Source: Trypanosoma brucei (lineage: Eukaryota). Taken from it: DNA of 64,000 bases. The notes beneath the pieces were generated by a model that was given only the letters and a program-made list of their open reading frames with translations, had not been told where the DNA came from and did no database searches. Shown here in pieces: positions 17,012 to 42,176 of this stretch. The first letter of the stretch is position 1; each line of letters begins with the position of its first letter. The position numbers and the translations under genes were made by a program. The DNA lies in contig CP000070.1 of assembly GCA_000002445.1 (NCBI GenBank), positions 448,001 to 512,000 on the forward strand, read 5' to 3'.

Positions 17012-17662
17012 ATCAATCCACAATACAAATCATACGTTGAACAGAAACTAAAACATTAAATACTAAATATAAATACATGGGGAAGTGATGTAAACTATAA
17101 GAGGGTTTATGTACGTCAAGGAAGTTTCATTAGAATACAATAATAGTTTTGAATTTTATTAAACAACTTAAAGCTTAACCACATGTGTGGAAACAACAAT
17201 CACTTCACTATAGCATTTGTAGATTAGTGATTGTTACTGAAATAAATGAAAAAAACAAATGAAGTAAATATGGCAAGCACTGCATCCCATATTCTGTATT
17301 CATCACTGTGTGCTGACGCGTTTGAGTAGCTTTGCCCATTGACAGAAAAAAAAATAATAAATAAATGAAATCTCTTCTTGCATCTTGCACAAGTGTATTT
17401 CAACAGAACAAAGACGTAAAAGAAATTTTATGCTTAATATATTTACTCATTTATTTGAAGGAAAGGTACAATGGCCAAAAAACTATAAAGGTGCATGTGA
17501 GTTATACTTCATTGTCAGATAAAGTTAACTTCACAACCCTCCTGAAACACAAAAGGAAAATTAAAAGAATTACAATGAAGAAACAGAAGGAATACAATAT
17601 GTTTTTGCCAACCTCTAACATGTTATATGTAAAAGTGACGAAATGGTCTTCACAATAGGATG

Positions 17663-19735
17663 CTACTCATGACCTCGTTTCCGTGTGAATGCTGGTGCAT
17701 CTCGATATTTTCTCTCTTCATGATACGCTATTATAAGCTCTTTCTGTATCTTGTTATCAAATGTTATTTGATACTGGTCAATACCATCCCAAAATACTTG
17801 TGTTTCCTCAGTTTGTTGCTCAGCATCAGCGGTGTTGTTGTTCACACATCGTTGCCGCGTCTTAATCACACCACCATAAATAGCATTAACATATATCATC
17901 TCCCATGCCATGTTACGAGAAAAGGTATCCCAATCGGAAAAATACCTTGCAATGTTTGTCATAAATTCCTGTAACTCTGAAACACTTGCTTCTTTCCTGT
18001 AATTATCTGTTATTTGAATAAGCACAATAGTCTTTGAGGCAACTCCCAGTTGTGGAAAACCATCCCTCATATCCGCAACCCTTCTAGAGCAATCTTCCAC
18101 AAAGAAAAAGCCATCCACAAAAAGCTTACTCTTTTCCAATGACCTGTAGAGCACTTTGTATTTACAGTTTCCAATTGCATTCTGTCCAGCTTCTGGTAAG
18201 AACTTTTGTTCAAAAATTTGAAACTGTTGTGGGGTCATATCTTTCAGGATGCTACGCTTGTCTTCCGTCTCTCCGAGTCTTCGGAGGTAGTTCAAATGTT
18301 TTGTGACCACACAAAAGACTCTAGGAAAGAGAAGTGAAACCAAAGCCCTTGTTTTAAGCGAGTAGGCTCCGACCTTACCGTATTCCATCATGAATTCATG
18401 GGATGACATACTTTCCGCAACATCTGCAAACAGCGTACAGAGTATCATATTCCCAATGGCAACTGATAGAGGTCTACAGTGGTATGATTCGAGGTTGCCA
18501 TATCTGCTCCTCTCCCGTACAATCTTTATTAACGATTCTGTGAAATGATTACCTTTCCATTCAAAATATTTTCCCATCATCATATCATAGCCATCTCGTC
18601 TATTACAACTGAGACTGCTTAGATACTCTATTACTGCCGCCTCACGACAGCCAGCTCCATTACTGAAAACATAACGAGGCAGCGGCCCCACAAAGTCAAC
18701 ACGTCTCTCCACCAACCTCCACTCATCCTCTAGCTCTTCCTTAACCTTCAAACGAGCATTTTCATCGAGAGTCGTATAGTTGGGAAATAGGGACAGTTTC
18801 TTCCAAGCCACAAACGCCTTAATGTCACGTACGTCATCGCAGTTTAAAATTATCCTTGTTTGTTCCAGGTTCTTCATCCAGTACTTGTAGCGAACTCCAT
18901 CTGGGGGTGCGAGGACAGTCACACCCCAAACATTTCTTGGGATCTCATAAGGCAGAGTTTCCTTACGACTATTAATATCAAAAATAATATGCCCTCTTTT
19001 TTTTAGACGCATTTCTTCAATAACATTAGTGACGTCTTCTCTCTTGTGCAATACAACCCTCCCTTCCTCATTCCCCTTCTTGTTGTATATAAGGTAAGCG
19101 TCCACATCCGTGAAATACACAACGACATCAAGCATTCCTTCATGGAAGTGAAGTAGGGAATGAAGTAAAAATGATCCAACTCCACATGATTTTCCAATAC
19201 CAGATATACCAATGACAATGTGTGTTGGTGGTGTGCTCTCTGTCTTTTCCACCCACCATGCATTTAATTTTCGTTGTATTATATACCACACACGCATCAT
19301 TTCACGACGGACGTAAATATGACCTCCATTTCCCCCATATAAACTAATGAGAGAACATTGAAATCTATCTGAGGGCCAACCCATCTTTGATGTAAGGACA
19401 AAGATCTCCAGGCCAGTGGGTCTCTCCTCAAGTTCCGCATCAACTTCACAATGTTCAGGAGTTATATCCACTTCTTCTTCCGTCCATATGTGTTGTGGTC
19501 TTCCAAAGAATACCTTCATACCGAGTGGCTCTTGATTATAACCTGACATCACATAACTCCACTTCGCATAATACAGAGACTCATATAACTCCTCTTCACG
19601 AGATTTCCTTTTTCCAGTTACCGATGGATTCTGCATCTGTCGTCCACCTTGTTCCTGCACTTCACCTTGTGCACGATTAAACCGTTCGTTAAACACATTC
19701 TGAGTATTTCTCATATTGCCGTTGTTTTGAATCAT
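17663..19735 (-). CDS. array copy 1: RHS-like P-loop NTPase, 690 aa, core type A
   Basis: ATG at 19735-19733 (minus), TAG stop at 17663-17665. Walker A IVIGISGIGKSCG. Q/N/E-rich N-terminus. Family assignment to trypanosome RHS proteins is an inference from size, P-loop and arrayed multigene nature. Confidence 0.6.
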   Translation of the reverse strand: MIQNNGNMRNTQNVFNERFNRAQGEVQEQGGRQMQNPSVTGKRKSREEELYESLYYAKWSYVMSGYNQEPLGMKVFFGRPQHIWTEEEVDITPEHCEVDAELEERPTGLEIFVLTSKMGWPSDRFQCSLISLYGGNGGHIYVRREMMRVWYIIQRKLNAWWVEKTESTPPTHIVIGISGIGKSCGVGSFLLHSLLHFHEGMLDVVVYFTDVDAYLIYNKKGNEEGRVVLHKREDVTNVIEEMRLKKRGHIIFDINSRKETLPYEIPRNVWGVTVLAPPDGVRYKYWMKNLEQTRIILNCDDVRDIKAFVAWKKLSLFPNYTTLDENARLKVKEELEDEWRLVERRVDFVGPLPRYVFSNGAGCREAAVIEYLSSLSCNRRDGYDMMMGKYFEWKGNHFTESLIKIVRERSRYGNLESYHCRPLSVAIGNMILCTLFADVAESMSSHEFMMEYGKVGAYSLKTRALVSLLFPRVFCVVTKHLNYLRRLGETEDKRSILKDMTPQQFQIFEQKFLPEAGQNAIGNCKYKVLYRSLEKSKLFVDGFFFVEDCSRRVADMRDGFPQLGVASKTIVLIQITDNYRKEASVSELQEFMTNIARYFSDWDTFSRNMAWEMIYVNAIYGGVIKTRQRCVNNNTADAEQQTEETQVFWDGIDQYQITFDNKIQKELIIAYHEERKYRDAPAFTRKRGHE

Positions 19736-22268
19736 TCCTATCTCAAAATAATAACTTTAAATAGGTAATATTGTGTTACTTTCTGCACATATATGTGTTT
19801 GTGTGTGTTAAATCAAATAGTAAAATGAAGGGAATGATGTGTACACACTATCAAGCAACACATATATACAGTTCATGAATATCATAAACTAACAGAACAA
19901 ATCATAACCCCTCCTTACAGTTAAACCCCTTAACAACCCCTTGCATATATTGAATAGTGATGTTCAATCAATTAAATATTCTGTATGAAAGCATGAGTAA
20001 TAAGATTTTTAGATATGAGAGATAACAAACACGAAATCCTAAGTGAAGAATACTACTATTTCATATAATATAATATGTATGCATATAGTATAATATGTCA
20101 TACTTTTTGAAATAATAAACAATAGTATTAATAATGAGATAAACAGAATTTACAATAATAGATTATACATTGCACACGTAATAATGAGGACAACGTATGT
20201 CACAAAGGTTCTTAATTATAACATCGAAAGAACATTAACTCAAAGCATCAGCATATACTGCACATACAAACTGTTATTCATTATAACATCTTGGCTCCAT
20301 TTCACAGCATAGACGACAATGTTTGAGTGTAAACCGTAACATACAAAACCCAACACAAATATCTTCTGTACTGTCAAATATTGGGATGGTATCTCATCTC
20401 ATTATTAAACACTTTCAACATTATCTTGTTGTCTCCTTGTTTGGGAACTCTCATCTGTGACACTAAGGAATATGTGAAGATATTAAGATCATTTATTTTT
20501 TTATTTCCTAGTTGCATTTGCAATTGTTCACGTATTCTTTCAGTACACGCAAAAAAATTGAAAGTTTAAGGAAAATTGAATTATGAGAATAAGGAAACAA
20601 AGGATAAATTTTCTGTGAACAATAAAATATTATATAATATCTCAAATCTTCTGCAGTGATTCACCACATGTGGAAAATATATGCAATAGTTACATAACAC
20701 TGACAACACTGAATAAAGGAATATATTCAATATACTCAATATAGTCAATATATTTAATGCAAATATTACATGGAATATAAGAAATGTAAGGAATCAAAGG
20801 AATATAAAAAATAAAATGTAATGGAGAATGATGAAAACTTAAGATACATCTATGTGAGCATAGCGTTGTGTGAGTAGAAATCATGTGCATATTTTATCTT
20901 AATCTTTCCCTATATTGTACTCACTCACTCGTAAAATTTAATCATGGAAATAAAGTTTAGGGAATAGTAAAGTTGTTCTTCCACTCGCATCAAGACACAA
21001 ATACCTGCTTTCTGTCATTGGAAATCATGTGTCTTTATTAAATTGTAGTATCCAATAATGAAAAAGAAGTACTCTATTACTATATCACTCATCATTTCCT
21101 ACATCCCTAAATATATCGCATATTGTCACTATACATATTCTTTTTCTTTTTCATATACCATACAACAATCATATATTATTTACTTCCTTTCTTTAACCTG
21201 ATGTTGTAATGTTCCTTTTGGAAGATACAAATAAATAATTGTACAAATATTAACACAAGAGTAATAATAGAAGAAAAGAATTACCTTAAGGAAACTACAT
21301 GGAACTTCCATTATATAAGATACTACACTTCATATAAGGGGGAAATACGTAACAGTGGTTGTATCTTTTATTTGTCCTCAGTGTATCGGCAATCCTTCAG
21401 TAGACACTGCTTTGCAACTGATTTCTTTTATGGATTAAGTTAGTCAGCAGTGTTGAGACAGGTTCCCCCGCATAAGGAGTGAAGAAACAAAACAATATTC
21501 CTACCTTCTAACCTATTGAACAAGAATGTCTCAAACAATATCATTTGTCCCTATTTATTTCTGCAGATGCAAATGCTATTGATGGGTGAGATACATCTAA
21601 ACAGCAACGGATATAACTATACTCATACAGTGTTTCTTTGATTTCTTCTCGTCACCACAGTTGTGTTGGGTTACAAATATATACACAGCACTCCACTTTG
21701 TGGCTATAAGTCTCTTTAATATTTGAATGAAATCCTGCTTATCGCTACTGCAATATTTCACACTCTGTGAGGGACACTGATATTTGCTTCTTTCGTCCAT
21801 TTCATATTTTGATAGTTATGTAAATATCTTATGTGCAATCCATCTCCTTTCCAAAATAAATAAAAAGAAAGATAAAAGCATAAGCAATTATCGACATAAA
21901 AACTGGAATGAGTCTCTCGGTTACACGTCGCACGCTTCTAACATATAGACACGCTGCATGTAACCTATTTTTGTTGTTTCATGCATGTGTCAGTATGATA
22001 AAATGAAAATAGTCTCATGTTTCTCCTTGTGCTTTTGTATTGCATAAACTACTGGACTCGTCATCTCTTCCACCTATTCATCACACAGGAGTTGTTCACT
22101 TGCTTTACATATAGCATATAGTAAAAATACAAAATATCAAATTATTAAATTAATACTTCACTATAAGCAATAAAGCTTACTTGATTTTGTTTATTTCATT
22201 TATATCTGAGTTGAATTACATATGTTAATGAAATTATTCCACTACTCAAAGATACAAACACTTTATTG

Positions 22269-22307
<39 letters not shown>
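22269..22307. repeat. compound (TA)n(GA)n microsatellite present once per array unit, length-variable between units (e.g. 27848-27900 is about 14 bp longer)
   Basis: Direct read: atatatatatatatatatagagagagagagagagaatgg. Found at the equivalent position in every unit with different repeat counts. Confidence 0.9.
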
Positions 22308-23246
22308 ATGGTTTTGAGACACACCACATATCAGTTCTTCAACATTACATATGTGTAAATCCATATTTACAAAAGGTACAGCTTTTGAATATCTGCATAA
22401 TTATTTGAAGTATTATTATCTAATGAAGTGAACAGTAGATGTCACTAAAATGCAAATAGTAATAATCCTCTGAAAGGCATAAATACTGTTTCACACAATA
22501 CTCTAAAGTAATGCAGCGCTATGCCATGAATACTTCCACAGAAGATACAACAACTAATGTGCGATAGTTAGTCATAATGATGCCTTCCATGTGATGAACT
22601 CTGCAATACAAATCATACGTTGAACAGAAACTAAAACATTAAATACTAAATATAAATGCATGGGGGAGTGATGTAAACTATAAGAGGGTTTATGTACGTC
22701 AAGGAAGTTTCATTAGAATACAATAATAGTTTTGAATTTTATTAAACAACTTAAAGCTTAACCACATGTGTGGAAACAACAATCACTTCACTATAGCATT
22801 TGTAGATTAGTGATTGTTACTGAAATAAATGAAAAAAAACAAATGAAGTAAATACGGCAAGCACTGCATCCCATATTCTGTATTCATCACTGTGTGCTGA
22901 CGCGTTTGAGTAGCTTTGCCCATTGACAGAAAAAAAAATAATAAATAAATGAAATCTCTTCTTGCATCTTGTACAAGTGTATTTCAACAAAACAAAGACG
23001 TAAAAGAAATTTTATGCTTAATATATTTACTCATTTATTTGAAGGAAAGGTACAATAGCCAAAAAACTATAAAGGTGCATGTGAGTTATACTTCATTGTC
23101 AGATAAAGTTAACTTCACAACCCTCCTGAAACACAAAAGGAAAATTAAAAGAATTACAATGAAGAAACAGAAGGAATACAATATGTTTTTGCCAACCTCT
23201 AACATGTTATATGTAAAAGTGACGAAATGGTCTTCACAATAGGATG

Positions 23247-25319
23247 CTACTCATGACCTCGTTTCCGTGTGAATGCTGGTGCATCTCGATATTTTCTCTC
23301 TTCATGATACGCTATTATAAGCTCTTTCTGTATCTTTTTATCAAATGTTATTTGATACTGGTCAATACCATCCCAAAATACTTGTGTTTCCTCAGTTTGT
23401 TGCTCAGCATCAGCGGTGTTGTTGTTCACACATCGTTGCCGCGTCTTAATCACACCACCATAAATAGCATTAACATATATCATCTCCCATGCCATGTTAC
23501 GAGAAAAGGTATCCCAATCGGAAAAATACCTTGCAATGTTTGTCATAAATTCCTGTAACTCTGAAACACTTGCTTCTTTCCTGTAATTATCTGTTATTTG
23601 AATAAGCACAATAGTCTTTGAGGCAACTCCCAGTTGTGGAAAACCATCCCTCATATCCGCAACCCTTCTAGAGCAATCTTCCACAAAGAAAAAGCCATCC
23701 ACAAAAAGCTTACTCTTTTCCAATGACCTGTAGAGCACTTTGTATTTACAGTTTCCAATTGCATTCTGTCCAGCTTCTGGTAAGAACTTTTGTTCAAAAA
23801 TTTGAAACTGTTGTGGGGTCATATCTTTCAGGATGCTACGCTTGTCTTCCGTCTCTCCGAGTCTTCGGAGGTAGTTCAAATGTTTTGTGACCACACAAAA
23901 GACTCTAGGAAAGAGAAGTGAAACCAAAGCCCTTGTTTTAAGCGAGTAGGCTCCGACCTTACCGTATTCCATCATGAATTCATGGGATGACATACTTTCC
24001 GCAACATCTGCAAACAGCGTACAGAGTATCATATTCCCAATGGCAACTGATAGAGGTCTACAGTGGTATGATTCGAGGTTTCCATATCTGCTCCTCTCCC
24101 GTACAATCTTTATTAACGATTCTGTGAAATGATTACCTTTCCATTCAAAATATTTTCCCATCATCATATCATAGCCATCTCGTCTATTACAACTGAGACT
24201 GCTTAGATACCTTATTACCGCCGCCTCACGACAGCAAGCTCCATTACTGAAAACATAACGAGGCAGCGGCCCCACAACGTCAACACGTCTCTCCACCAAC
24301 CTCCACTCATCCTCTAGTTCTTCCTTAACCTTCAAACGAGCATTTTCATCGAGAGTCGTATAGTTGGGAAATACGGACAGTTTCTTCCAAGCCACAAACG
24401 CCTTAATGTCACGTACGTCATCGCAGTTTAAAATTATCCTTGTTTGTTCCAGGTTCTTCATCCAGTACTTGTAGCGAACTCCATCTGGGGGTGCGAGGAC
24501 AGTCACACCCCAAACATTTCTTGGGATCTCATAAGGCAGAGTTTCCTTAGGACTATTAATATCAAAAATAATATGCCCTCTTTTTTTTAGACGCATTTCT
24601 TCAATAACATTAGTGACGTCTTCTCTCTCGTACAATACAACCCTCCCTTCCTCATTCCCCTTCTTGTTGTATATAAGGTAAGCGTCCACATCCGTGAAAT
24701 ACACAACGACATCAAGCATTCCTTCATGGAAGTGAAGTAGGGAATGAAGTAAAAATGATCCAACTCCACATGATTTTCCAATACCAGATATACCAATGAC
24801 AATGTGTGTTGGTGGTGTGCTCTCTGTCTTTTCCACCCACCATGCATTTAATTTTCGTTGTATTATATACCACACACGCATCATTTCACGACGGACGTAA
24901 ATATGACCTCCATTTCCCCCATATAAACTAATGAGAGAACATTGAAATCCGCATGATGGGTTACATATCTTTGATGTAAGGACAAAGATCTCCAGGCCAG
25001 TGGGTCTCTCCTCAAGTTCCGCATCAACTTCACAATGTTCAGGAGTTATATCCACTTCTTCTTCCGTCCATATGTGTTGTGGTCTTCCAAAGAATACCTT
25101 CATACCGAGTGGCTCTTGATTATAACCTGACATCACATAACTCCACTTCGCATAATACAGAGACTCATATAACTCCTCTTCACGAGATTTCCTTTTTCCA
25201 GTTACCGATGGATTCTGCATCTGTCGTCCACCTCGTTCCTGCACTTCACCTTGTGCACGATTAAACCGTTCGTTAAACACATTCTGAGTATTTCTCATAT
25301 TGCCGTTGTTTTGAATCAT
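23247..25319 (-). CDS. array copy 2: RHS-like P-loop NTPase, 690 aa, core type A with a variant micro-patch (SKICNPSCGF in place of SKMGWPSDRF)
   Basis: Colinear with copy 1. The ~22 bp substituted segment at 24949-24970 partly resembles the reverse complement of the copy-1 sequence. Confidence 0.6.
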   Translation of the reverse strand: MIQNNGNMRNTQNVFNERFNRAQGEVQERGGRQMQNPSVTGKRKSREEELYESLYYAKWSYVMSGYNQEPLGMKVFFGRPQHIWTEEEVDITPEHCEVDAELEERPTGLEIFVLTSKICNPSCGFQCSLISLYGGNGGHIYVRREMMRVWYIIQRKLNAWWVEKTESTPPTHIVIGISGIGKSCGVGSFLLHSLLHFHEGMLDVVVYFTDVDAYLIYNKKGNEEGRVVLYEREDVTNVIEEMRLKKRGHIIFDINSPKETLPYEIPRNVWGVTVLAPPDGVRYKYWMKNLEQTRIILNCDDVRDIKAFVAWKKLSVFPNYTTLDENARLKVKEELEDEWRLVERRVDVVGPLPRYVFSNGACCREAAVIRYLSSLSCNRRDGYDMMMGKYFEWKGNHFTESLIKIVRERSRYGNLESYHCRPLSVAIGNMILCTLFADVAESMSSHEFMMEYGKVGAYSLKTRALVSLLFPRVFCVVTKHLNYLRRLGETEDKRSILKDMTPQQFQIFEQKFLPEAGQNAIGNCKYKVLYRSLEKSKLFVDGFFFVEDCSRRVADMRDGFPQLGVASKTIVLIQITDNYRKEASVSELQEFMTNIARYFSDWDTFSRNMAWEMIYVNAIYGGVIKTRQRCVNNNTADAEQQTEETQVFWDGIDQYQITFDKKIQKELIIAYHEERKYRDAPAFTRKRGHE

Positions 25320-27853
25320 TCCTATCTCAAAATAATAACTTTAAATAGGTAATATTGTGTTACTTTCTGAACATATATGTGTTTGTGTGTGTTAAATCAA
25401 ATAGTAAAATGAAGGGAATGATGTGTACACACTATCAAGCAACACATATATACAGTTCATGAATATCATAAACTAACAGAACAAATCATAACCCCTCCTT
25501 ACAGTTAAACCCCTTAACAACCCCTTGCATATATTGAATAGTGATGTTCAATCAATTAAATATTCTGTATGAAAGCATGAGTAATAAGATTTTTAGATAT
25601 GAGAGATAACAAACACGAAATCCTAAGTGAAGAATACTACTATTTCATATAATATAATATGTATGCATATAGTATAATATGTCATACTTTTTGAAATAAT
25701 AAACAATAGTATTAATAATGAGATAAACAGAATTTACAATAATAGATTATACATTGCACACGTAATAATGAGGACAACGTATGTCACAAAGGTTCTTAAT
25801 TATAACATCGAAAGAACATTAACTCAAAGCATCAGCATATACTGCACATACAAACTGTTATTCATTATAACATCTTGGCTCCATTTCACAGCATAGACGA
25901 CAATGTTTGAGTGTAAACCGTAACATACAAAACCCAACACAAATATCTTCTGTACTGTCAAATATTGGGATGGTATCTCATCTCATTATTAAACACTTTC
26001 AACATTATCTTGTTGTCTCCTTGTTTGGGAACTCTCATCTGTGACACTAAGGAATATGTGAAGATATTAAGATCATTTATTTTTTTATTTCCTAGTTGCA
26101 TTTGCAATTGTTCACGTATTCTTTCAGTACACGCAAAAAAATTGAAAGTTTAAGGAAAATTGAATTATGAGAATAAGGAAACAAAGGATAAATTTTCTGT
26201 GAACAATAAAATATTATATAATATCTCAAATCTTCTGCAGTGATTCACCACATGTGGAAAATATATGCAATAGTTACATAACACTGACAACACTGAATAA
26301 AGGAATATATTCAATATACTCAATATAGTCAATATATTTAATGCAAATATTACATGGAATATAAGAAGTGTAAGGAATCAAAGAAATATAAAAAATAAAA
26401 TGTAATGGAGAATGATGGAAACTTAAGATACATCTATGTGAGCATAGCGTTGTGTGAGTAGAAATCATGTGCATATTTTATCTTAATCTTTCCCTATATT
26501 GTACTCACTCACTCGTAAAATTTAATCATGGAAATAAAGTTTAGGGAATAGTAAAGTTGTTCTTCCACTCGCATCAAGACACAAATACCTGCTTTCTGTC
26601 ATTGGAAATCATGTGTCTTTATTAAATTGTAGTATCCAATAATGAAAAAGAAGTACTCTATTACTATATCACTCATCATTTCCTACATCCCTAAATATAT
26701 CGCATATTGTCACTATACATATTCTTTTTCTTTTTCATATACCATACAACAATCATATATTATTTACTTCCTTTCTTTAACCTGATGTTGTAATGTTCCT
26801 TTTGGAAGATACAAATAAATAATTGTACAAATATTAACACAAGAGTAATAATAGAAGAAAAGAATTACCTTAAGGAAACTACATGGAACTTCCATTATAT
26901 AAGATACTACACTTCATATAAGGGGGAAATACGTAACAGTGGTTGTATCTTTTATTTGTCCTCAGTGTATCGGCAATCCTTCAGTAGACACTGCTTTGCA
27001 ACTGATTTCTTTTATGGATTAAGTTAGTCAGCAGTGTTGAGACAGGTTCCCCCGCATGAGGAGTGAAGGGACAAAACAATATTCCTACCTTCTAACCTAT
27101 TGAACAAGAATGTCTCAAACAATATCATTTGTCCCTATTTATTTCTGCAGATGCAAATGCTATTGATGGGTGAGATACATCTAAACAGCAACGGATATAA
27201 CTATACTCATACAGTGTTTCTTTGATTTCTTCTCGTCACCACAGTTGTGTTGGGTTACAAATATATACACAGCACTCCACTTTGTGGCTATAAGTCTCTT
27301 TAATATTTGAATGAAATCCTGCTTATCGCTACTGCAATATTTCACACTCTGTGAGGGACACTGATATTTGCTTCTTTCGTCCATTTCATATTTTGATAGT
27401 TATGTAAATATCTTATGTGCAATCCATCTCCTTTCCAAAATAAATAAAAAGAAAGATAAAAGCATAAGCAATTATCGACATAAAAACTGGAATGAGTCTC
27501 TCGGTTACACGTCGCACGCTTCTAACATATAGACATGCTGCATGTAACCTATTTTTGTTGTTTCATTCATGTGTCAGTATGATAAAATGAAAATAGTCTC
27601 ATGTTTCTCCTTGTGCTTTTGTATTGCATAAACTACTGGACTCGTCATCTCTTCCACCTATTCATCACACAGGAGTTGTTCACTTGCTTTACATATAGCA
27701 TATAGTAAAAATACAAAATATCACATTATTAAATTAATACTTCACTATAAGCAATAAAGCTTACTTGATTTTGTTTATTTCATTTATATCTGAGTTGAAT
27801 TACATATGTTAATTGAAATTATTCCACTACTCAAAGATACAAACACTTTATTG

Positions 27854-27900
<47 letters not shown>

Positions 27901-28849
27901 ATGGTTTTGAGACACACCACATATCAGTTCTTCAACATTACATATGTGTAAATCCATATTTACAAAAGGTACAGCTTTTGAATATCTGCATAATTATTTG
28001 AAGTATTATTATCTAATGAAGTGAACAGTAGATGTCCCTGAAATGCAAATAGTAATAATCCTCTGAAAGGCATAAATACTGTTTCACACAATACTCTAAA
28101 GTAATGCAGCGCTATGCCATGAATACTTCCACAGAAGATACAACAACTAATGTGCGATAGTTAGTCATAATGATGCCTTCCATGTGATGAACTCTGCAAT
28201 ACAAATCATACGTTAACAGAAACTAAAACATTAAATACTAAATATAAATACATGGGGGAGTGATGTAAACTATAAGAGGGGTTATGCACGTCAAAAAAGT
28301 TTCATTAGAATACAATAATAGTTTTGAATTTTATTAAACAACTTAAAGCTTAACCACATGTGTGGAAACAACAATCACTTCACTATAGCATTTGTAGATT
28401 AGTGATTGTTACTGAAATAAATGAAAAAAACAAATGAAGTAAATACGGCAAGCACTGCATCCCATATTCTGTATTCATCACTGTGTGCTGACGCGTTTGA
28501 GTAGCTTTGCCCATTGACAGAAAAAAAAATAATAAATAAATGAAATCTCTTCTTGCATCTTGTACAAGTGTATTTCAACAGAACAAAGACGTAAAAGAAA
28601 TTTTATGCTTAATATATTTACTCATTTATTTGAAGGAAAGGTACAATGGCCAAAAAACTATAAAGGTGCATGTGAGTTATACTTCATTGTCAGATAAAGT
28701 TAACTTCACAACCCTCCTGAAACACAAAAGGAAAATTAAAAGAATTACAATGAAGAAACAGAAGGAATACAATATGTTTTTTCCAACCTCTAACATGTTA
28801 TATGTAAAAGTGACGAAATGGTCTTCACAATAGGATGCTACTCATGACC

Positions 28850-30910
28850 TCATTTCCGTGTGAATGCTGGTGCATCTCGATATTTTCTCTCTTCATGATA
28901 CGCTATTATAAGCTCTTTCTGTATCTTTTTATCAAATGTTATTTGATACTGGTCAATACCATCCCAAAATACTTGTGTTTCCTCAGTTTGTTGCTCAGCA
29001 TCAGCGGTGTTGTTGTTCACACATCGTTGCCGCGTCTTAATCACACCACCATAAATAGCATTAACATATATCATCTCCCATGCCATGTTACGAGAAAAGG
29101 TATCCCAATCGGAAAAATACCTTGCAATGTTTGTCATAAATTCCTGTAACTCTGAAACACTTGCTTCTTTCCTGTAATTATCTGTTATTTGAATAAGCAC
29201 AATAGTCTTTGAGGCAACTCCCAGTTGTGGAAAACCATCCCTCATATCCGCAACCCTTCTAGAGCAATCTTCCACAAAGAAAAAGCCATCCACAAAAAGC
29301 TCACTCTCCTCCAATGACCTGTAGAGCACCTTGTATTTACAGTTTCCAATTGCATTCTGTCCAGTTTTTGGTAAGAACTTTTGTTCAAAAATTTGAAACT
29401 GTTGTGGGGTCATATCTTTCAGGATGCTACGCTTGTCTTCCGTCTCTCCGAGTCTTCGGAGGTAGTTCAAATGTTTTGTGACCACACAAAAGACTCTAGG
29501 AAAGAGAAGTGAAACCAAAGCCCTTGTTTTAAGCGAGTAGGCTCCGACCTTACCGTATTCCATCATGAATTCATGGGATGACATACTTTCCGCAACATCT
29601 GCAAACAGCGTACAGAGTATCATATTCCCAATGGCAACTGATAGAGGTCTACAGTGGTATGATTCGAGGTTGCCATATCTGCTCCTCTCCCGTACAATCT
29701 TTATTAACGATTCTGTGAAATGATTACCTTTCCATTCAAAATATTTTCCCATCATCATATCATAGCCATCTCGTCTATTACAACTGAGACTGCTTAGATA
29801 CTCTATTACTGCCGCCTCACGACAGCCAGCTCCATTACTGAAAACATAACGAGGCAGCGGCCCCACAAAGTCAACACGTCTCTCCACCAACCTCCACTCA
29901 TCCTCTAGCTCTTCCTTAACCTTCAAACGAGCATTTTCATCGAGAGTCGTATAGTTGGGAAATAGGGACAGTTTCTTCCAAGCCACAAACGCCTTAATGT
30001 CACGTACGTCATCGCAGTTTAAAATTATCCTTGTTTGTTCCAGGTTCTTCATCCAGTACTTGTAGCGAACTCCATCTGGGGGTGCGAGGACAGTCACACC
30101 CCAAACATTTCTTGGGATCTCATAAGGCAGAGTTTCCTTACGACTATTAATATCAAAAATAATATGCCCTCTTTTTTTTAGACGCATTTCTTCAATAACA
30201 TTAGTGACGTCTTCTCTCTTGTGCAATACAACCCTCCCTTCCTCATTCCCCTTCTTGTTGTATATAAGGTAAGCGTCCACATCCGTGAAATACACAACGA
30301 CATCAAGCATTCCTTCATGGAAGTGAAGTAGGGAATGAAGTAAAAATGATCCAACTCCACATGATTTTCCAATACCAGATATACCAATGACAATGTGTGT
30401 TGGTGGTGTGCTCTCTGTCTTTTCCACCCACCATGCATTTAATTTTCGTTGTATTATATACCACACACGCATCATTTCACGACGGACGTAAATATGACCT
30501 CCATTTCCCCCATATAAACTAATGAGAGAACATTGAAATCTATCTGAGGGCCAACCCATCTTTGATGTAAGGACAAAGATCTCCAGGCCAGTGGGTCTCT
30601 CCTCAAGTTCCGCATCAACTTCACAATGTTCAGGAGTTATATCCACTTCTTCTTCCGTCCATATGTGTTGTGGTCTTCCAAAGAATACCTTCATACCGAG
30701 TGGCTCTTGATTATAACCTGACATCACATAACTCCACTTCGCATAATACAGAGACTCATATAACTCCTCTTCACGAGATTTCCTTTTTCCAGTTACCGAT
30801 GGATTCTGCATCTGTCGTCCACCTTGTTCCTGCACTTCACCTTGTGCACGATTAAACCGTTCGTTAAACACATTCTGAGTATTTCTCATATTGCCGTTGT
30901 TTTGAATCAT
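28850..30910 (-). CDS. array copy 3: RHS-like P-loop NTPase, 686 aa, core type A, early stop removing the last 4 aa
   Basis: CGA to TGA (plus-strand g to a at 28850-28852) ends the protein at ...AFTRK instead of ...AFTRKRGHE. Confidence 0.6.
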   Translation of the reverse strand: MIQNNGNMRNTQNVFNERFNRAQGEVQEQGGRQMQNPSVTGKRKSREEELYESLYYAKWSYVMSGYNQEPLGMKVFFGRPQHIWTEEEVDITPEHCEVDAELEERPTGLEIFVLTSKMGWPSDRFQCSLISLYGGNGGHIYVRREMMRVWYIIQRKLNAWWVEKTESTPPTHIVIGISGIGKSCGVGSFLLHSLLHFHEGMLDVVVYFTDVDAYLIYNKKGNEEGRVVLHKREDVTNVIEEMRLKKRGHIIFDINSRKETLPYEIPRNVWGVTVLAPPDGVRYKYWMKNLEQTRIILNCDDVRDIKAFVAWKKLSLFPNYTTLDENARLKVKEELEDEWRLVERRVDFVGPLPRYVFSNGAGCREAAVIEYLSSLSCNRRDGYDMMMGKYFEWKGNHFTESLIKIVRERSRYGNLESYHCRPLSVAIGNMILCTLFADVAESMSSHEFMMEYGKVGAYSLKTRALVSLLFPRVFCVVTKHLNYLRRLGETEDKRSILKDMTPQQFQIFEQKFLPKTGQNAIGNCKYKVLYRSLEESELFVDGFFFVEDCSRRVADMRDGFPQLGVASKTIVLIQITDNYRKEASVSELQEFMTNIARYFSDWDTFSRNMAWEMIYVNAIYGGVIKTRQRCVNNNTADAEQQTEETQVFWDGIDQYQITFDKKIQKELIIAYHEERKYRDAPAFTRK

Positions 30911-33439
30911 TCCTATCTCAAAATAATAACTTTAAATAGGTAATATTGCGTTACTTTCTGCACATATGTGTGTGTGTGTGTTAAATCAAATAGTAAAATG
31001 AAGGGAATGATGTGTACACACTATCAAGCAACACATATATACAGTTCATGAATATCATAAACTAACAGAACAAATTATAACCCCTTCTTACAGTTAAACC
31101 CCTTAACAACCCCTTGCATATATTGAATAGTGATGTTCAATCAATTAAATATTCTGTATGAAAGCATGAGTAATAAGATTTTTAGATATGAGAGATAACA
31201 AACACGAAATCCTAAGTGAAGAATACTACTATTTCATATAATATAATATGTATGCATATAGTATAATATGTCATACTTTTTGAAATAATAAACAATAGTA
31301 TTAATAATGAGATAAACAGAATTTACAATAATAGATTATACATTGCACACGTAATAATGAGGACAACGTATGTCACAAAGGTTCTTAATTATAACATCGA
31401 AAGAACATTAACTCAAAGCATCAGCAAACATGCACATACAAACTGTTATTCATTATAACATCTTGGCTCCATCTCACAGCATAGACGACAATGTTTGAGT
31501 GTAAACCGTAACATACAAAACCTAACACAAATATCTTCTGTACTGTCAAATATTGGGATGGTATCTCATCTCATTATTAAACACTTTCAACATTATCTTG
31601 TTGTCTCCTTGTTTGGGAACTCTCATCTGTGACACTAAGGAATATGTGAAGATATTAAGATCATTTATTTTTTTATTTCCTAGTTGCATTTGCAATTGTT
31701 CACATATTCTTTCAGTACACGCAAAAAAATTGAAAGTTTAAGGAAAATTGAATTATGAGAATAAGGAAACAAAGGATAAATTTTCTGTGAACAATAAAAT
31801 ATTATATAATATCTCAAATCTTCTGCAGTGATTCACCACATGTGGAAAATATATGCAATAGTTACATAACACTGACAACACTGAATAAAGGAATATATTC
31901 AATATACTCAATATAGTCAATATATTTAATGCAAATATTACATGGAATATAAGAAATGTAAGGAATCAAAGGAATATAAAAATAAAATGTAATGGAGAAT
32001 GATGGAAACTTAAGATACATCTATGTGAGCATAGCGTTGTGTGAGTAGAAATCATGTGCATATTTTATCTTAATCTTTCCCTATATTGTACTCACTCACT
32101 CGTAAAACTTAATCATGGAAATAAAGTTTAGGGAATAGTAAAGTTGTTCTTCCACTCGCATCAAGACACAAATACATGCTTTCTGTCATTGGAAATCATG
32201 TGTCTTTATTAAATTGTAGTATCCAATAATGAAAAAGAAGTACTCTATTACTATATCACTCATCATTTCCTACATCCCTAAATATATCGCATATTGTAAC
32301 TATACATATTCTTTTTCTTTTTCATATACCAAACAACAATCATATATTATTTACTTCCTTTCTTTAACCTGATGTCGTAATGTTCCTTTTGGAAGATACA
32401 AATAAATAATTGTACAAATATTAACACAAGAGTAATAATAGAAGAAAAGAATTACCTTAAGGAAACTACATGGAACTTCCATTATATAAGATACTACACT
32501 TCATATAAGGGGGAAATACGTAACAGTGGTTGTATCTTTTATTTGTCCTCAGTGTATCGGCAATCCTTCAGTAGACACTGCTTTGCAACTGATTTCTTTT
32601 ATGGATTAAGTTAGTCAGCAGTGTTGAGACAGGTTCCCCCGCATGAGGAGTGAAGGGACAAAACAATATTCCTACCTTCTAACCTATTGAACAAGAATGT
32701 CTCAAACAATATCATTTGTCCCTATTTATTTCTGCAGATGCAAATGCTATTGATGGGTGAGATACATCTAAACAGCAACGGATATAACTATACTCATACA
32801 GTGTTTCTTTGATTTCTTCTCGTCACCACAGTTGTGTTGGGTTACAAATATATACACAGCACTCCACTTTGTGGCTATAAGTCTCTTTAATATTTGAATG
32901 AAATCCTGCTTATCGCTACTGCAATATTTCACACTCTGTGAGGGACACTGATATTTGCTTCTTTCGTCCATTTCATATTTTGATAGTTATGTAAATATCT
33001 TATGTGCAATCCATCTTCTTTCCAAAATAAATAAAAAGAAAGATAAAAGCATAAGCAATTATCGACATAAAAACTGGAATGAGTCTCTCGGTTACACGTC
33101 GCACGCTTCTAACATATAGACACGCTGCATGTAACCTATTTTTGTTGTTTCATGCATGTGTCAGTATGATAAAATGAAAATAGTCTCATGTTTCTCCTTG
33201 TGCTTTTGTATTGCATAAACTACTGGACTCGTCATCTCTTCCACCTATTCATCACACAGGAGTTATTCACTTGCTTTACATGTAGCATATAGTAAAAATA
33301 CAAAATATCAAATTATTAAATTAATACTTCACTATAAGCAATAAAGCTTACTTGATTTTGTTTATTTCATTTATATCTGAGTTGAATTACATATGTTAAT
33401 GAAATTATTCCACTACTCAAAGATACAAACACTTTATTG

Positions 33440-33474
<35 letters not shown>

Positions 33475-34413
33475 ATGGTTTTGAGACACACCACATATCA
33501 GTTCTTCAACATTACATATGTGTAAATCCATATTTACCAAAGGTACAGCTTTTGAATATCTGCATAATATTTTGAAGTATTATTATCTAATGAAGTGAAC
33601 AGTAGATGTCACTGAAATGCAAATAGTAATAATCCTCTGAAAGGCATAAATACTGTTTCATACAATACTCTAAAGTAATGCAGCGCTGTGCCATGAATAC
33701 TTCCACAGAATATACAACAACTAATGTGCGATAGTTAGTCATAATGATGCCTTCCATGTGATGAACTCTGCAATACAAATCATACGTTGAACAGAAACTA
33801 AAACATTAAATACTAAATATAAATACATGGGGGAGTGATGTAAACTATAAGAGGGGTTATGCACGTCAAAAAAGTTTCATTAGAATACAATAATAGTTTT
33901 GAATTTTATTAAACAACTTAAAGCTTAACCACATGTGTGGAAACAACAATCACTTCACTATAGCATTTGTAGATTAGTGATTGTTACTGAAATAAATGAA
34001 AAAAAACAAATGAAGTAAATACGGCAAGCACTGCATCCCATATTCTGTATTCATCACTGTGTGCTGACGCGTTTGAGTAGCTTTGCCCATTGACAGAAAA
34101 AAAAATAATAAATAAATGAAATCTCTTCTTGCATCTTGTACAAGTGTATTTCAACAAAACAAAGACGTAAAAGAAATTTTATGCTTAATATATTTACTCA
34201 TTTATTTGAAGGAAAGGTACAATAGCCAAAAAACTATAAAGGTGCATGTGAGTTATACTTCATTGTCAGATAAAGTTAACTTCACAACCCTCCTGAAACA
34301 CAAAAGGAAAATTAAAAGAATTACAATGAAGAAACAGAAGGAATACAATATGTTTTTTCCAACCTCTAACATGTTATATGTAAAAGTGACGAAATGGTCT
34401 TCACAATAGGATG

Positions 34414-36495
34414 CTACTCATGACCTCGTTTCCGTGTGAATGCTGGTGCATCTCGATATTTTCTCTCTTCATGATACGCTATTATAAGCTCTTTCTGTAT
34501 CTTTTTATCAAATGTTATTTGATACTGGTCAATACCATCCCAAAATACTTGTGTTTCCTCAGTTTGTTGCTCAGCATCAGCGGTGTTGTTGTTCACACAT
34601 CGTTGCCGCGTCTTAATCACACCACCATAAATAGCATTAACATATATCATCTCCCATGCCATGTTACGAGAAAAGGTATCCCAATCGGAAAAATACCTTG
34701 CAATGTTTGTCATAAATTCCTGTAACTCTGAAACACTTGCTTCTTTCCTGTAATTATCTGTTATTTGAATAAGCACAATAGTCTTTGAGGCAACTCCCAG
34801 TTGTGGAAAACCATCCCTCATATCCGCAACCCTTCTAGAGCAATCTTCCACAAAGAAAAAGCCATCCACAAAAAGCTTACTCTCCTCCAATGACCTGTAG
34901 AGCACTTTGTATTTACAGTTTCCAATTGCATTCTGTCCAGTTTTTGGCAAGAACTTTTGTTCAAAAATTTGAAACTGTTGTGGGGTCATATCTTTCAGGA
35001 TGCTACGCTTGTCTTCCGTCTCTCCGAGTCTTCGGAGGTAGTTCAAATGTTTTGTGACCACACAAAAGACTCTAGGAAAGAGAAGTGAAACCAAAGCCCT
35101 TGTTTTAAGCGAGTAGGCTCCGACCTTACCGTATTCCATCATGAATTCATGGGATGACATACTTTCCGCAACATCTGCAAACAGCGTACAGAGTATCATA
35201 TTCCCAATGGCAACTGATAGAGGTCTACAGTGGTATGATTCGAGGTTGCCATATCTGCTCCTCTCCCGTACAATCTTTATTAACGATTCTGTGAAATGAT
35301 TACCTTTCCATTCAAAATATTTTCCCATCATCATATCATAGCCATCTCGTCTATTACAACTGAGACTGCTTAGATACCCTATTACTGCCGCCTCACGACA
35401 GCCAGCTCCATTACTGAAAACATAACGAGGCAGCGGCCCCACAAAGTCAACACGTCTCTCCACCAACCTCCACTCATCCTCTAGCTCTTCCTTAACCTTC
35501 AAACGAGCATTTTCATCGAGAGTCGTATAGTTGGGAAATAGGGACAGTTTCTTCCAAGCCACAAACGCCTTAATGTCACGTACGTCATCGCAGTTTAAAA
35601 TTATCCTTGTTTGTTCCAGGTTCTTCATCCAGTACTTGTAGCTAACTCCATCTGGGGGTGCGAGGACAGTCACACCCCAAACATTTCTTGGGATCTCATA
35701 AGGCAGAGTTTCCTTACGACTATTAATATCAAAAATAATATGCCCTCTTTTTTTTAGACGCATTTCCTTAATAACATTAGTGACGTCTTCTCTCTTGTAC
35801 AATACAACCCTCCCTTCCTCATTCCCCTTCTTGTTGTATATAAGGTAAGCTTTGGAACCCGTGAAAAACACAACGACATCAAGCATTCCTTCATGGAAGT
35901 GAAGTAGGGAATGAAGTAAAAATGATCCAACTCCACATGATTTTCCAATACCAGATATACCAATGACAATGTGTGTTGGTGGTGTGCTCTCTGTCTTTTC
36001 CACCCACCATGCATTTAATTTTCGTTGTATTATATACCACACACGCATCATTTCACGACGGATGTAGACATTATTGTCCAATATCCCAATTCTCTGATAT
36101 AAACTAATGAGAGAACATTGAAATCTATCTGAGGGCCAACCCATCTTTGATGTAAGGACAAAGATCTCCAGGCCAGTGGGTCTCTCCTCAAGTTCCGCAT
36201 CAACTTCACAATGTTCAGGAGTTATATCAACTTCTTCTTCCGTCCATATGTGTTGTGGTCTTCCAAAGAATACCTTCATACCGAGTGGCTCTTGATTATA
36301 ACCTGACATCACATAACTCCACTTCGCATAATACAGAGACTCATATAACTCCTCTTCACGAGATTTCCTTTTTCCAGTTACCGATGGATTCTGCATCTGT
36401 CGTCCACCTCGTTCCTGCACTTCACCTTGTGCACGATTAAACCGTTCGTTAAACACATTCTGAGTATTTCCCATATTGCCGTTGTTTTGAATCAT
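34414..36495 (-). CDS. array copy 4: RHS-like P-loop NTPase, 693 aa, type A core with short B-derived tracts (QRIGILDNNVYIRR; VVVFFTGSKAY)
   Basis: Colinear ORF. A +3 aa insertion-type patch matches the B-type sequence on its 5' side and the A-type on its 3' side. Confidence 0.6.
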   Translation of the reverse strand: MIQNNGNMGNTQNVFNERFNRAQGEVQERGGRQMQNPSVTGKRKSREEELYESLYYAKWSYVMSGYNQEPLGMKVFFGRPQHIWTEEEVDITPEHCEVDAELEERPTGLEIFVLTSKMGWPSDRFQCSLISLYQRIGILDNNVYIRREMMRVWYIIQRKLNAWWVEKTESTPPTHIVIGISGIGKSCGVGSFLLHSLLHFHEGMLDVVVFFTGSKAYLIYNKKGNEEGRVVLYKREDVTNVIKEMRLKKRGHIIFDINSRKETLPYEIPRNVWGVTVLAPPDGVSYKYWMKNLEQTRIILNCDDVRDIKAFVAWKKLSLFPNYTTLDENARLKVKEELEDEWRLVERRVDFVGPLPRYVFSNGAGCREAAVIGYLSSLSCNRRDGYDMMMGKYFEWKGNHFTESLIKIVRERSRYGNLESYHCRPLSVAIGNMILCTLFADVAESMSSHEFMMEYGKVGAYSLKTRALVSLLFPRVFCVVTKHLNYLRRLGETEDKRSILKDMTPQQFQIFEQKFLPKTGQNAIGNCKYKVLYRSLEESKLFVDGFFFVEDCSRRVADMRDGFPQLGVASKTIVLIQITDNYRKEASVSELQEFMTNIARYFSDWDTFSRNMAWEMIYVNAIYGGVIKTRQRCVNNNTADAEQQTEETQVFWDGIDQYQITFDKKIQKELIIAYHEERKYRDAPAFTRKRGHE

Positions 36496-39027: not shown

Positions 39028-39062
<35 letters not shown>

Positions 39063-42083: not shown

Positions 42084-42136
42084 TCCTATCTCAAAATAAT
42101 AACTTTAAATAGGTAATATTGCGTTACTTTCTGCAC

Positions 42137-42141
42137 ATATG

Positions 42142-42176
<35 letters not shown>

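What the first reader, a model, noticed from the sequence alone, without database searches (positions are those of the whole stretch)
19736..22603. Non-coding spacers are homogenised to near identity while the ORF core is diversified, so two opposing processes act within the same unit
The ~3.5 kb AT-rich spacer shows only sporadic SNPs and microsatellite-length changes across all nine units, regardless of whether the adjacent gene is core type A, B or the copy-9 type. Examples are 19736-22603, 25320-28196 and 47689-50563. Concerted evolution by unequal crossing-over would normally homogenise the gene as well. Block divergence confined to the middle of the coding region therefore argues for diversity re-imported by ectopic conversion, possibly maintained by diversifying selection on the NTPase core. 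No credible second gene is present: the largest spacer ORFs are 60-67 aa and AT-rich. The spacer is probably long UTR or RNA-processing sequence, and 3.5 kb is long for a trypanosome intergenic interval.
Basis: seen in the sequence. Interest (0 to 1): 0.5.

Follow-up and report, generated by a model that had tools for sequence, protein, structure and literature searches.

The report
Known mosaic RHS7 tandem gene array
This is the RHS7 tandem gene array on chromosome 7 of Trypanosoma brucei TREU927, where near-identical spacers surround genes carrying four deeply divergent two-form coding cassettes, a real pattern that was already published for this locus in 2007 and 2010.

Summary
The eight inter-copy spacers (about 3.5 kb, 28-33% GC) differ by only 0.6-1.3%, whatever gene core lies next to them. 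The coding core differs by up to 52% per 100 nt.

The window is T. b. brucei TREU927 chromosome 7, and the array is RHS7 (Tb927.7.1950-2030). Jackson 2007 reported the same discordance between CDS and UTRs for this array ("Tb55"). Jackson et al. 2010 reported its mosaics shared between subspecies.

The divergence sits in four short cassettes (aa 118-144, 254-295, 358-414, 437-461). Each has two forms:
- They are 30-48% divergent at nucleotide level, with pS about 42% and pN/pS about 0.95.
- Both forms occur in T. b. gambiense and T. equiperdum, where they are reassorted (10 of 16 combinations).

The spacers are no better conserved than distal synonymous sites (0.99% versus 1.26%). They are more diverse than single-copy non-coding DNA between subspecies (0.64%).

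No ectopic donor exists among annotated RHS proteins (at most 53% identity), and dN/dS does not show diversifying selection.

My preferred explanation is one process. Homology-dependent exchange blends similar sequence and swaps whole cassettes that are too divergent to blend. Already known; low interest.

The parts
17021..64000 (-). RHS7 tandem array of T. b. brucei TREU927 chromosome 7. It holds nine copies with a unit of about 5.58 kb. The window cuts copy 9 (Tb927.7.2030, the first copy in the direction of transcription).
   Evidence: ORF periodicity. Pfam RHS_N plus RHSP. ORF products are identical to AAZ12260-AAZ12267. Unit homology ends about 642 nt 3' of the last stop codon.
17663..19735 (-). 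Copy U1, 690 aa, all four cassettes form A (AAAA).
23247..25319 (-). Copy U2, 690 aa, form A with the ICNPSCG variant in HV1.
28850..30910 (-). Copy U3, 686 aa, form A. It carries the premature stop R687* (CGA to TGA), also seen in U8 and U9.
34414..36495 (-). Copy U4, 693 aa, form A with a short B-like tract inside HV1 (QRIGILDNNVYI).
40002..42083 (-). Copy U5, a pseudogene by a single nonsense codon (W84*). Otherwise it resembles U4.
45613..47688 (-). Copy U6, 691 aa, all four cassettes form B (BBBB).
51215..53287 (-). Copy U7, 690 aa, form B.
56809..58872 (-). Copy U8, 687 aa, form B, with R687*.
62388..64000 (-). Copy U9, cut by the window end (full protein AAZ12267, 688 aa). Its HV2 is form A and it has its own A-related variants in HV3 and HV4. 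It is the edge copy of the array.
19736..23246 (-). Complete spacer between U2 and U1: 3511 nt, 28-33% GC, and about 99% identical to the other seven spacers.
22604..23246 (-). Spacer part 1: the 643 nt immediately 3' of the stop codon. The same sequence follows the last copy U1 (17021-17662).
20547..22603 (-). Spacer part 2: a middle segment of 2057 nt found only between copies in the data I hold. It contains a (CT)10 tract (22289-22308) and an (AT)10 tract.
19736..20546 (-). Spacer part 3: the 811 nt next to the ATG. It is also present upstream of the first copy in T. equiperdum (L001 3568-4376, 98.8% identity). It contains a pyrimidine-rich stretch, a variable (CA)n run and a CAG about 50 nt upstream of the ATG, which is the likely trans-splice acceptor (inferred).
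19304..19384 (-). Cassette HV1 in U1 (aa 118-144). At least three haplotypes exist. A versus B is 33% divergent at nucleotide level.
18851..18976 (-). Cassette HV2 in U1 (aa 254-295). It starts directly after the Walker B-like IIFD motif. A versus B is 48% divergent at nucleotide level, with dS about 1.07.
18494..18664 (-). Cassette HV3 in U1 (aa 358-414). A versus B is 35% divergent at nucleotide level.
18353..18427 (-). Cassette HV4 in U1 (aa 437-461). A versus B is 30% divergent at nucleotide level.
46303..47337 (-). Region of U6 that holds the four form-B cassettes: HV1 47257-47337, HV2 46804-46929, HV3 46444-46617, HV4 46303-46377.
   Evidence: Coordinates are computed from codon numbers.

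Best explanation
The array is one population of about 5.6-kb units that exchange sequence with each other by homology-dependent recombination, meaning short-tract gene conversion and unequal crossing-over. Wherever units are similar (spacer, N-terminus, C-terminus, segments between cassettes) this exchange keeps them at about 1% diversity and scrambles the polymorphisms. Four short parts of the coding region exist in two old forms that differ at 30-48% of nucleotides. They are also the least constrained parts of the whole RHS family. At that divergence a heteroduplex cannot form across them, so the forms are never blended. They can only be carried along whole when exchange starts and ends in the identical flanking segments. 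One process gives both patterns, so no second, opposing process is needed.

Shown here: the divergence profile, the deep synonymous divergence of the cassettes, their sharing between subspecies, their reassortment, and the mosaic state of the spacers.

Inferred: that sequence divergence, through mismatch-sensitive recombination, is what protects the cassettes; and that the two forms descend from two old RHS7 paralogues.

Not decided: whether selection also helps to keep both forms.
For: 1. Uniform shallow history outside the cassettes. Spacer pi is 0.99%. Distal coding pS is 1.26%, the same for A-versus-B as within a type.

2. Deep history inside the cassettes. dS is 0.36-1.07 and dN 0.34-0.72. 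Pooled pS is 42% and pN 40%.

3. A halo of intermediate divergence lies in the conserved segments between cassettes. There pS is 6.2% for A versus B against 1.3% within a type. This is expected if exchange is rarer close to the unblendable blocks.

4. The cassettes coincide with the family-wide least conserved regions. Mean identity to other RHS is 15-39%, against 32-67% in the intervening and flanking segments.

5. Same-form cassettes are 0-2.7% divergent between TREU927, DAL972 and T. equiperdum, except HV1 form A, which has two sub-haplotypes and differs by about 8%. DAL972 also shows the same order [copy-9 type][B][B][B][A] at the upstream end of the array.

6. Reassortment. 10 of 16 A/B combinations are seen across the three genomes. 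There is one switch inside HV2 (DAL_a) and a partial B tract inside HV1 of U4 and U5.

7. Exchange in the flanks is independent of the core.
- Hudson-Kaplan Rm is at least 16 in the TREU927 spacers.
- The R687* stop is shared by U3 (A), U8 (B) and U9.
- Between TREU927 and DAL972 spacers there are 51 shared polymorphisms and 0 fixed differences. Even so, Snn is 0.95 and net divergence is 0.22% (p = 2e-4), which points to slow exchange within each array.

8. T. brucei homologous recombination is impeded by base mismatches (Barnes and McCulloch 2007, PMC1904282). Jackson 2007 proposed that less conserved gene regions 'may rapidly escape conversion'.
Against: - Nothing here measures recombination or mismatch rejection directly.
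- Under pure drift an array should eventually lose one form. Keeping both forms at all four cassettes in two genomes, and at three of four in T. equiperdum, may need selection.
- The reassorted combinations come mainly from the DAL972 assembly. That assembly has gaps and was ordered against TREU927, so some chimeras could be assembly errors. T. equiperdum supplies only two independent recombinants (BBBA and BAAA).
- The origin of the B forms is not established. RHS pseudogenes are absent from protein databases and were not searched.
Confidence: 0.6

Rival explanations
1. Balancing or diversifying selection actively maintains the two cassette forms because RHS7 isoforms with different cassettes do different things. 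Gene conversion would otherwise erase the difference.
For: - Both forms of three of the four cassettes persist in three T. brucei-group genomes, and HV1 form A is missing only from the three assembled T. equiperdum copies.
- pN/pS is close to 1 in the cassettes, and 1.65 in HV4.
- The cassettes flank the P-loop domain motifs. Walker A also differs: GISGIGKS versus GIPGTGKS.
Against: - pN/pS of about 0.95 with pS of 42% is what weak constraint over a long time gives. It is not a signature of positive selection.
- pN/pS is also about 1 within a type, and many copies are pseudogenes (U5; several DAL972 and T. equiperdum copies). That suggests relaxed constraint.
- T. equiperdum has lost HV1 form A in its three assembled copies.
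- This reading is compatible with the best explanation rather than exclusive of it.
Confidence: 0.2
2. The array is homogenised as a whole, and the core diversity is repeatedly re-imported by ectopic gene conversion from dispersed RHS paralogues.
For: - Block boundaries are sharp.
- Mosaic RHS genes with traced donors are reported in T. cruzi (PMC7563717).
- In the cassettes, A and B differ from each other as much as RHS subfamilies do.
Against: - Among all RHS protein clusters recovered, none exceeds 53% aa identity to either form within a cassette.
- Jackson 2007 tested arrays together with other family members and found ectopic conversion only in Tb105a and Tb32.
- The cassette forms are shared and nearly identical across subspecies, so no recent import took place.
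- The halo of intermediate divergence between cassettes is not expected from clean imported tracts.
Confidence: 0.08
3. The spacer is conserved by purifying selection because it is functional, for example as a long regulatory 3'UTR, an ncRNA or a small ORF. Its uniformity would then not be due to exchange among copies.
For: - RHS7 is reported to be expressed only in tsetse salivary-gland stages (PMC6393297), and its mRNA stability depends on DRBD18 (PMC4477658). Regulatory UTR elements are therefore likely.
- A 67-aa sense-strand ORF (21597-21800) is intact in all 16 units examined.
Against: - Spacer diversity (0.99%) is no lower than distal synonymous diversity (1.26%). It is higher than single-copy non-coding divergence between subspecies (0.64%).
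- At 1% divergence an intact short ORF is expected by chance.
- There is no Pfam hit above threshold and no Rfam hit.
- A functional UTR may well exist, but it is not needed to explain the uniformity.
Confidence: 0.07
4. The pattern is an assembly artefact. Near-identical spacers were collapsed to a consensus and pasted between correctly resolved cores.
For: Tandem arrays are hard to assemble from capillary reads. T. equiperdum shows only 3 copies and DAL972 has gaps.
Against: - Each spacer has its own SNP and microsatellite pattern.
- 51 spacer polymorphisms are shared with an independent assembly of another subspecies.
- A third assembly shows the same ~99.4% identity between spacers.
Confidence: 0.05

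Closest known systems
Array 'Tb55' (RHS7, Tb927.7.2030) in Jackson 2007, BMC Evol Biol 7:54 (PMC1855330)
   Same: It is the same locus in the same genome. The paper reports that CDS copies 2-4 (here U8, U7, U6, form B) are robustly divergent, while the 5' and 3' UTR networks do not follow them. [quoted passage not shown] It also states that non-coding regions were often more conserved than CDS, and that less conserved gene regions may escape conversion.
   Different: The paper does not resolve the four cassettes, their synonymous depth, or the comparison with single-copy divergence. Those are added here, but they are refinements.
Subspecies-specific sequence mosaics in tandem arrays (Jackson et al. 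2010, PLoS NTD 4:e658, PMC2854126, Table 2, array 55)
   Same: It covers the same array compared between T. b. brucei (10 annotated copies) and T. b. gambiense (20 copies). It reports 5 shared isoforms, PHI p<0.001, and 12 (LRT) and at least 3 (GARD) breakpoints. This matches the shared cassette forms and the reassortment found here.
   Different: Only a table entry is given for this array. There is no cassette map and no spacer analysis.
Mosaic RHS genes of Trypanosoma cruzi (Bernardo et al. 2020, Genes 11:1085, PMC7563717)
   Same: It concerns RHS family genes with mosaic structure, produced by unequal crossing-over and segmental or interlocus gene conversion.
   Different: In T. cruzi donors from other RHS groups were traced, and many genes are subtelomeric and dispersed. 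Here the array is chromosome-internal, no outside donor is found, and the mosaics are built from only two forms per block.
Partial concerted evolution with islands of divergence in duplicated genes.
   Same: Flanks and conserved segments are homogenised, while divergent or selected segments resist conversion. Boundaries are sharp and there is a halo of intermediate divergence.
   Different: The models usually treat two-copy systems. Here a 9-25 copy array carries four separate dimorphic islands that reassort.
Segmental gene conversion that builds mosaic VSG genes in T. brucei
   Same: It is the same organism and it assembles genes from alternative segments by homologous recombination.
   Different: VSG mosaics draw on a large dispersed archive and are selected by host immunity against a surface coat. 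Most RHS subfamilies examined are nuclear, intracellular proteins; RHS7 itself was not localised. No archive donor is seen here.

Membership tests
RHS (retrotransposon hot spot) protein family, subfamily RHS7 | RHS_N (PF20445) plus the RHSP P-loop domain (PF07999) | tested here: met
   E = 1e-32 and 3e-53 for U1; 2e-33 and 6e-59 for U6.
RHS (retrotransposon hot spot) protein family, subfamily RHS7 | Identity with the annotated RHS7 genes of T. b. brucei TREU927 chromosome 7 | tested here: met
   Exact-sequence look-up: the products equal AAZ12260, 12261, 12263-12266, and the flanking genes equal AAZ12256 and AAZ12258. The RHS7 / Tb927.7.2030 naming comes from PMC1855330 and PMC4477658.
Tandem array under concerted evolution | Head-to-tail repeated units containing gene plus spacer | tested here: met
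   Nine copies with a period of 5564-5611 nt.
Tandem array under concerted evolution | Copies within one genome are more alike than copies from related genomes | tested here: inconclusive
   For spacers the feature is weakly met. Diversity is 0.99-1.00% within a genome and 1.21% between, Snn is 0.95 and the permutation p is 2e-4, but there are 0 fixed differences and 51 shared polymorphisms. For the cassettes it is not met, because the forms are shared across subspecies.
Ectopic (interlocus) gene conversion from dispersed paralogues | A donor outside the array with high identity to the converted tract | tested here: not met
   The best non-RHS7 protein is 24-53% identical inside the cassettes. 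Jackson 2007 did not implicate this array. Pseudogenes were not searched at DNA level.
Diversifying (positive) selection on a coding region | dN/dS clearly above 1 in the variable region | tested here: not met
   Nei-Gojobori dN/dS is 0.68, 0.67, 0.97 and 1.65 for HV1 to HV4. Pooled pN/pS is 0.95 with pS at 42%. HV4 has only 25 codons.
Divergence-limited gene conversion (islands of divergence) | Sharp-edged blocks with high synonymous divergence inside otherwise near-identical copies, with recombinants between the blocks | tested here: met
   dS is 0.36-1.07 in the blocks against 0-0.09 outside them. There is a halo with pS of 6.2%. 10 of 16 cassette combinations are observed.
Divergence-limited gene conversion (islands of divergence) | Recombination frequency falls with mismatch density at this locus | not testable with these tools
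   Only the general property of T. brucei recombination is documented (PMC1904282).

The most novel reading that the evidence does not exclude
The four two-form cassettes may be a selected combinatorial system. By reassorting them, each strain would build a different set of up to 16 RHS7 isoforms of a P-loop protein that is reported to be made only in tsetse salivary-gland stages. That would be a contingency-like diversity system for a protein that is probably intracellular.
Probability: 0.1. Interest if true: 0.5.

Novelty: already known. Interest (0 to 1): 0.15.

Why it matters
This is a clean textbook example of how a tandem array can be uniform and variable at the same time. It also shows that the variable part of RHS7 consists of four discrete, old, reassorting cassettes, not of diffuse divergence. 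That could help anyone studying RHS7 function in tsetse salivary-gland stages, for instance when designing isoform-specific tags or probes. It does not open a new question. The pattern, its discordance with the UTRs and its mosaic nature were published for this very locus in 2007 and 2010.

Tried and rejected
- Tandem Repeats Finder found nothing at a minimum score of 200, because its longest period is 500 nt. The array was defined from ORF periodicity and MAFFT instead.
- tRNA and Rfam scans of the window, plus a permissive Rfam scan of one spacer, gave no credible hit. The best were E = 0.78 and 0.91, far below gathering scores.
- Pfam on the four longest spacer ORFs gave only sub-threshold matches.
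- An AlphaFold2 model of U1 with a 26-sequence alignment was too poor to use (mean pLDDT 54, with the cassette regions below 50). Mapping the cassettes onto a surface was abandoned and no fold search was run.
- Exact-product look-ups for TREU927 proteins found no contig on record. The region upstream of copy 9 in TREU927 therefore could not be read. The upstream end of the DAL972 array was not reached either.
- A sensitive blastn of the spacer against the rest of the window and against itself showed no other copy and no internal repeat. The junctions of the three spacer parts show no target-site duplication or poly(A) tail that would mark a retroelement.
- A supplement search for mapped UTRs of the RHS7 genes returned only the neighbouring gene Tb927.7.2040.
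Full report
**What the window is.** Bases 1-16.5 kb carry plus-strand housekeeping genes: a FYVE protein, a kinase, the glycine cleavage P-protein, an LRR protein and a GDA1/CD39 nucleoside phosphatase. From 17.0 kb to the end of the window, nine head-to-tail copies of a ~690-aa gene lie on the minus strand with a period of about 5.58 kb. The gene has the Pfam RHS_N and RHSP P-loop domains. An exact-sequence look-up shows that every product equals a protein of Trypanosoma brucei brucei TREU927 chromosome 7, namely AAZ12256 to AAZ12267. The array is therefore the RHS7 array. In order of transcription its first copy, Tb927.7.2030, is the one cut by the window end.
- Copy U5 is a pseudogene through a single nonsense codon.
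- From the published 3'UTR coordinates of neighbouring genes, the window corresponds to about 448,001-512,000 of Tb927_07_v5.1. This offset is an inference.

**Check of the observation.** I aligned the eight complete units plus the partial ninth with MAFFT.
- In 100-nt windows the spacer has a nucleotide diversity of 0-0.028, about 0.01 on average. The two ends of the ORF have 0-0.02. The ORF core has windows of 0.09-0.28, with pairwise differences up to 52%.
- Any two spacers differ by 20-45 substitutions in ~3.5 kb. The spacer distance matrix shows no grouping by the type of the neighbouring core.
- Cores differ by 181-199 of 1100 columns between U1-U5 (form A) and U6-U8 (form B), and by at most 40 within a form.

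- The stated interval 19736-22603 is only the ATG-proximal 2868 nt of a 3511-nt spacer. The other 643 nt (22604-23246) is the 3' flank that is also found after the last copy.
- The longest spacer ORF is 97 aa, not 60-67 aa.
- 'Near identity' means about 99%.

**Anatomy of the variable core.** The protein alignment shows that divergence is not diffuse. It is confined to four short blocks: HV1 (aa 118-144), HV2 (aa 254-295, starting right after the Walker B-like IIFD), HV3 (aa 358-414) and HV4 (aa 437-461). The segments between them are identical or nearly so.
- At nucleotide level the two forms differ by 33, 48, 35 and 30% respectively.
- Nei-Gojobori estimates for U1 versus U6 give dS of 0.36-1.07 and dN of 0.34-0.72 inside the blocks, against dS of 0-0.09 outside them.
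- Pooled over all A-versus-B pairs, pS is 42% and pN is 40% in the blocks. In the conserved segments between blocks pS is 6.2%, against 1.3% within a form. In the distal N- and C-terminal parts pS is 1.27%.

High synonymous divergence means the blocks are old. They were not recently diversified by selection on amino-acid changes, and pN/pS of about 0.95 does not demonstrate positive selection. The blocks coincide with the regions that are least conserved across the whole RHS family.

**Is there an outside donor?** A search of the large protein collection with a form-B copy returned 27 clusters, all of them RHS. Within the blocks no non-RHS7 protein is more than 53% identical to either form (24-53% depending on the block), which is about as far as A is from B. 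Jackson 2007 ran gene-conversion tests on each array together with other family members and implicated only two other arrays. Ectopic re-import is therefore not supported. One caveat remains: RHS pseudogenes are not in protein databases and I could not search a complete T. brucei genome at DNA level.

**Comparison with other genomes.** I fetched five stretches of the orthologous array of T. b. gambiense DAL972 (L002-L006). That array spans at least 145 kb. I also fetched the three-copy array of T. equiperdum (L001).
- Both cassette forms occur in these genomes, apart from HV1 form A, which was not seen in T. equiperdum. Their sequences differ from the TREU927 forms by only 0-2.7%. HV1 form A, which has two sub-haplotypes, differs by about 8%.
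- In TREU927 the four blocks are fully linked (AAAA or BBBB). The only exception is a short B-like tract inside HV1 of U4 and U5.
- In DAL972 and T. equiperdum the blocks are reassorted. Across the three genomes 10 of the 16 possible combinations are seen, and one DAL972 copy switches form inside HV2.
- DAL972 keeps the same order [copy-9 type][B][B][B][A] at the upstream end of the array.

**Are the spacers specially homogenised?** Using 8 TREU927 and 13 DAL972 spacers:
- Mean divergence is 0.99% within TREU927, 1.00% within DAL972 and 1.21% between them.
- There are no fixed differences and 51 shared polymorphisms. Nearest neighbours nonetheless come from the same genome (Snn 0.95, permutation p = 2e-4).
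- The single-copy flank of the array differs between the two subspecies by 0.37% in coding and 0.64% in non-coding DNA.

So the spacers of one array differ from each other more than single-copy non-coding DNA differs between subspecies. They are also no more uniform than synonymous sites of the distal coding parts (1.26%).

The four-gamete test gives at least 16 recombination events among the TREU927 spacers. A premature stop (R687*, CGA to TGA) is shared by U3 (form A), U8 (form B) and U9. The spacers and gene ends are thus a slowly exchanging, well-shuffled pool with about 1% standing variation. They are not a region under a special homogenising force.

**What is in the spacer?** No tRNA, Rfam family or Pfam domain was found. 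At 1% divergence an intact short ORF tells us nothing, and the 97-aa ORF is broken in two units. The spacer has three parts:
- 643 nt after the stop codon, also present after the last copy.
- A middle segment of 2057 nt, seen only between copies.
- 811 nt before the ATG, also present upstream of the first copy in T. equiperdum.

A pyrimidine-rich stretch, a variable (CA)n run and a CAG lie about 50 nt before the ATG. The published 3'UTR of the upstream gene Tb927.7.2040 ends about 170 nt before the first copy's ATG. By inference, most of each internal spacer is the 3'UTR (about 3.3 kb) of the upstream RHS7 copy. This fits two published findings. RHS7 expression is reported to be restricted to tsetse salivary-gland stages (PMC6393297). 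The mRNA is also stabilised by DRBD18 (PMC4477658). This step is not shown here.

**Mechanism.** The simplest account uses one process. Homology-dependent exchange among units blends sequence wherever the units are similar. It cannot form a heteroduplex across blocks that differ at 30-48% of positions. Such blocks are therefore either left alone or replaced whole when exchange begins and ends in the identical flanks.
- This explains the sharp edges, the halo of intermediate divergence between blocks, the reassortment, and the independence of the spacer and core histories.
- T. brucei homologous recombination is known to be impeded by mismatches (PMC1904282).
- Jackson 2007 already suggested that less conserved regions escape conversion.
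- Whether selection also helps to retain both forms cannot be decided here.

I put this account at 0.6. The alternatives are added balancing selection (0.2), ectopic import (0.08), functional constraint on the spacer as the cause of its uniformity (0.07) and assembly artefact (0.05).

**Comparison with what is known, and novelty.** Jackson 2007 (PMC1855330) analysed this very array as 'Tb55'. [quoted passage not shown] It also noted that non-coding regions were often more conserved than CDS in variable arrays. Jackson et al. 2010 (PMC2854126, Table 2) list the array with 10 copies in T. b. brucei and 20 in T. b. gambiense, 5 shared isoforms, and significant recombination with 12 breakpoints. 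Both the finding and the idea that homogenisation and differentiation act together in one unit are therefore already published. These are refinements.

**Verdict.** The proposed ectopic import and diversifying selection are not supported. The novelty class is 'already known' and the interest is low (0.15).

Noticed in passing
window 41831-41833 (codon 84 of copy U5, CDS 40002-42083, minus strand): Copy U5 is inactivated by a single in-frame stop (W84*) in an otherwise full-length gene. It is the one pseudogene of the TREU927 array.
   Followed up: partly
window 28850, 56809 and 62388 (stop codons of U3, U8, U9): A CGA to TGA change (R687*) shortens the protein by four residues in three copies. 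Those copies carry three different core types, so this polymorphism has moved between units independently of the core.
   Followed up: yes
window 20547-22603, and the same segment in each spacer: The middle 2057 nt of the spacer is found only between copies. It is absent after the last copy in TREU927 and absent upstream of the first copy in T. equiperdum. A simple tandem duplication of gene plus flanks would not create such a segment. Its origin is unexplained, and its junctions show no retroelement hallmarks.
   Followed up: partly
window 19785-19800, and the equivalent site about 55 nt upstream of each ATG: A (CA)n/(TG)n microsatellite varies by up to about 11 repeat units between copies. 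It sits just upstream of a CAG that is the likely trans-splice acceptor.
   Followed up: no
window 16510-17020: A convergent strand-switch region lies between the plus-strand gene cluster and the minus-strand RHS7 array. No tRNA gene was found there. The last plus-strand ORF (16036-16509, 157 aa) has no Pfam match.
   Followed up: no
L002-L006 (T. b. gambiense DAL972 FN554970.1, about 419.9-574.5 kb) and L001 (T. equiperdum CM010678.1): Copy number differs strongly between genomes: 9 copies in TREU927, an array of at least 145 kb in DAL972, and only 3 copies in the T. equiperdum assembly. Many DAL972 and T. equiperdum copies carry internal stops or frameshifts.
   Followed up: partly
window 19190-19213 (Walker A of U1), compared with 47143-47166 (U6): The P-loop itself differs between forms, GISGIGKS in A and GIPGTGKS in B. 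In DAL972 this difference is not strictly linked to the neighbouring cassettes.
   Followed up: no
window 23244-23558, plus strand: A 104-aa ORF runs antisense to the 3' end of the RHS7 CDS. It is annotated as a gene in the DAL972 record (L004 601-915). It is probably spurious.
   Followed up: no
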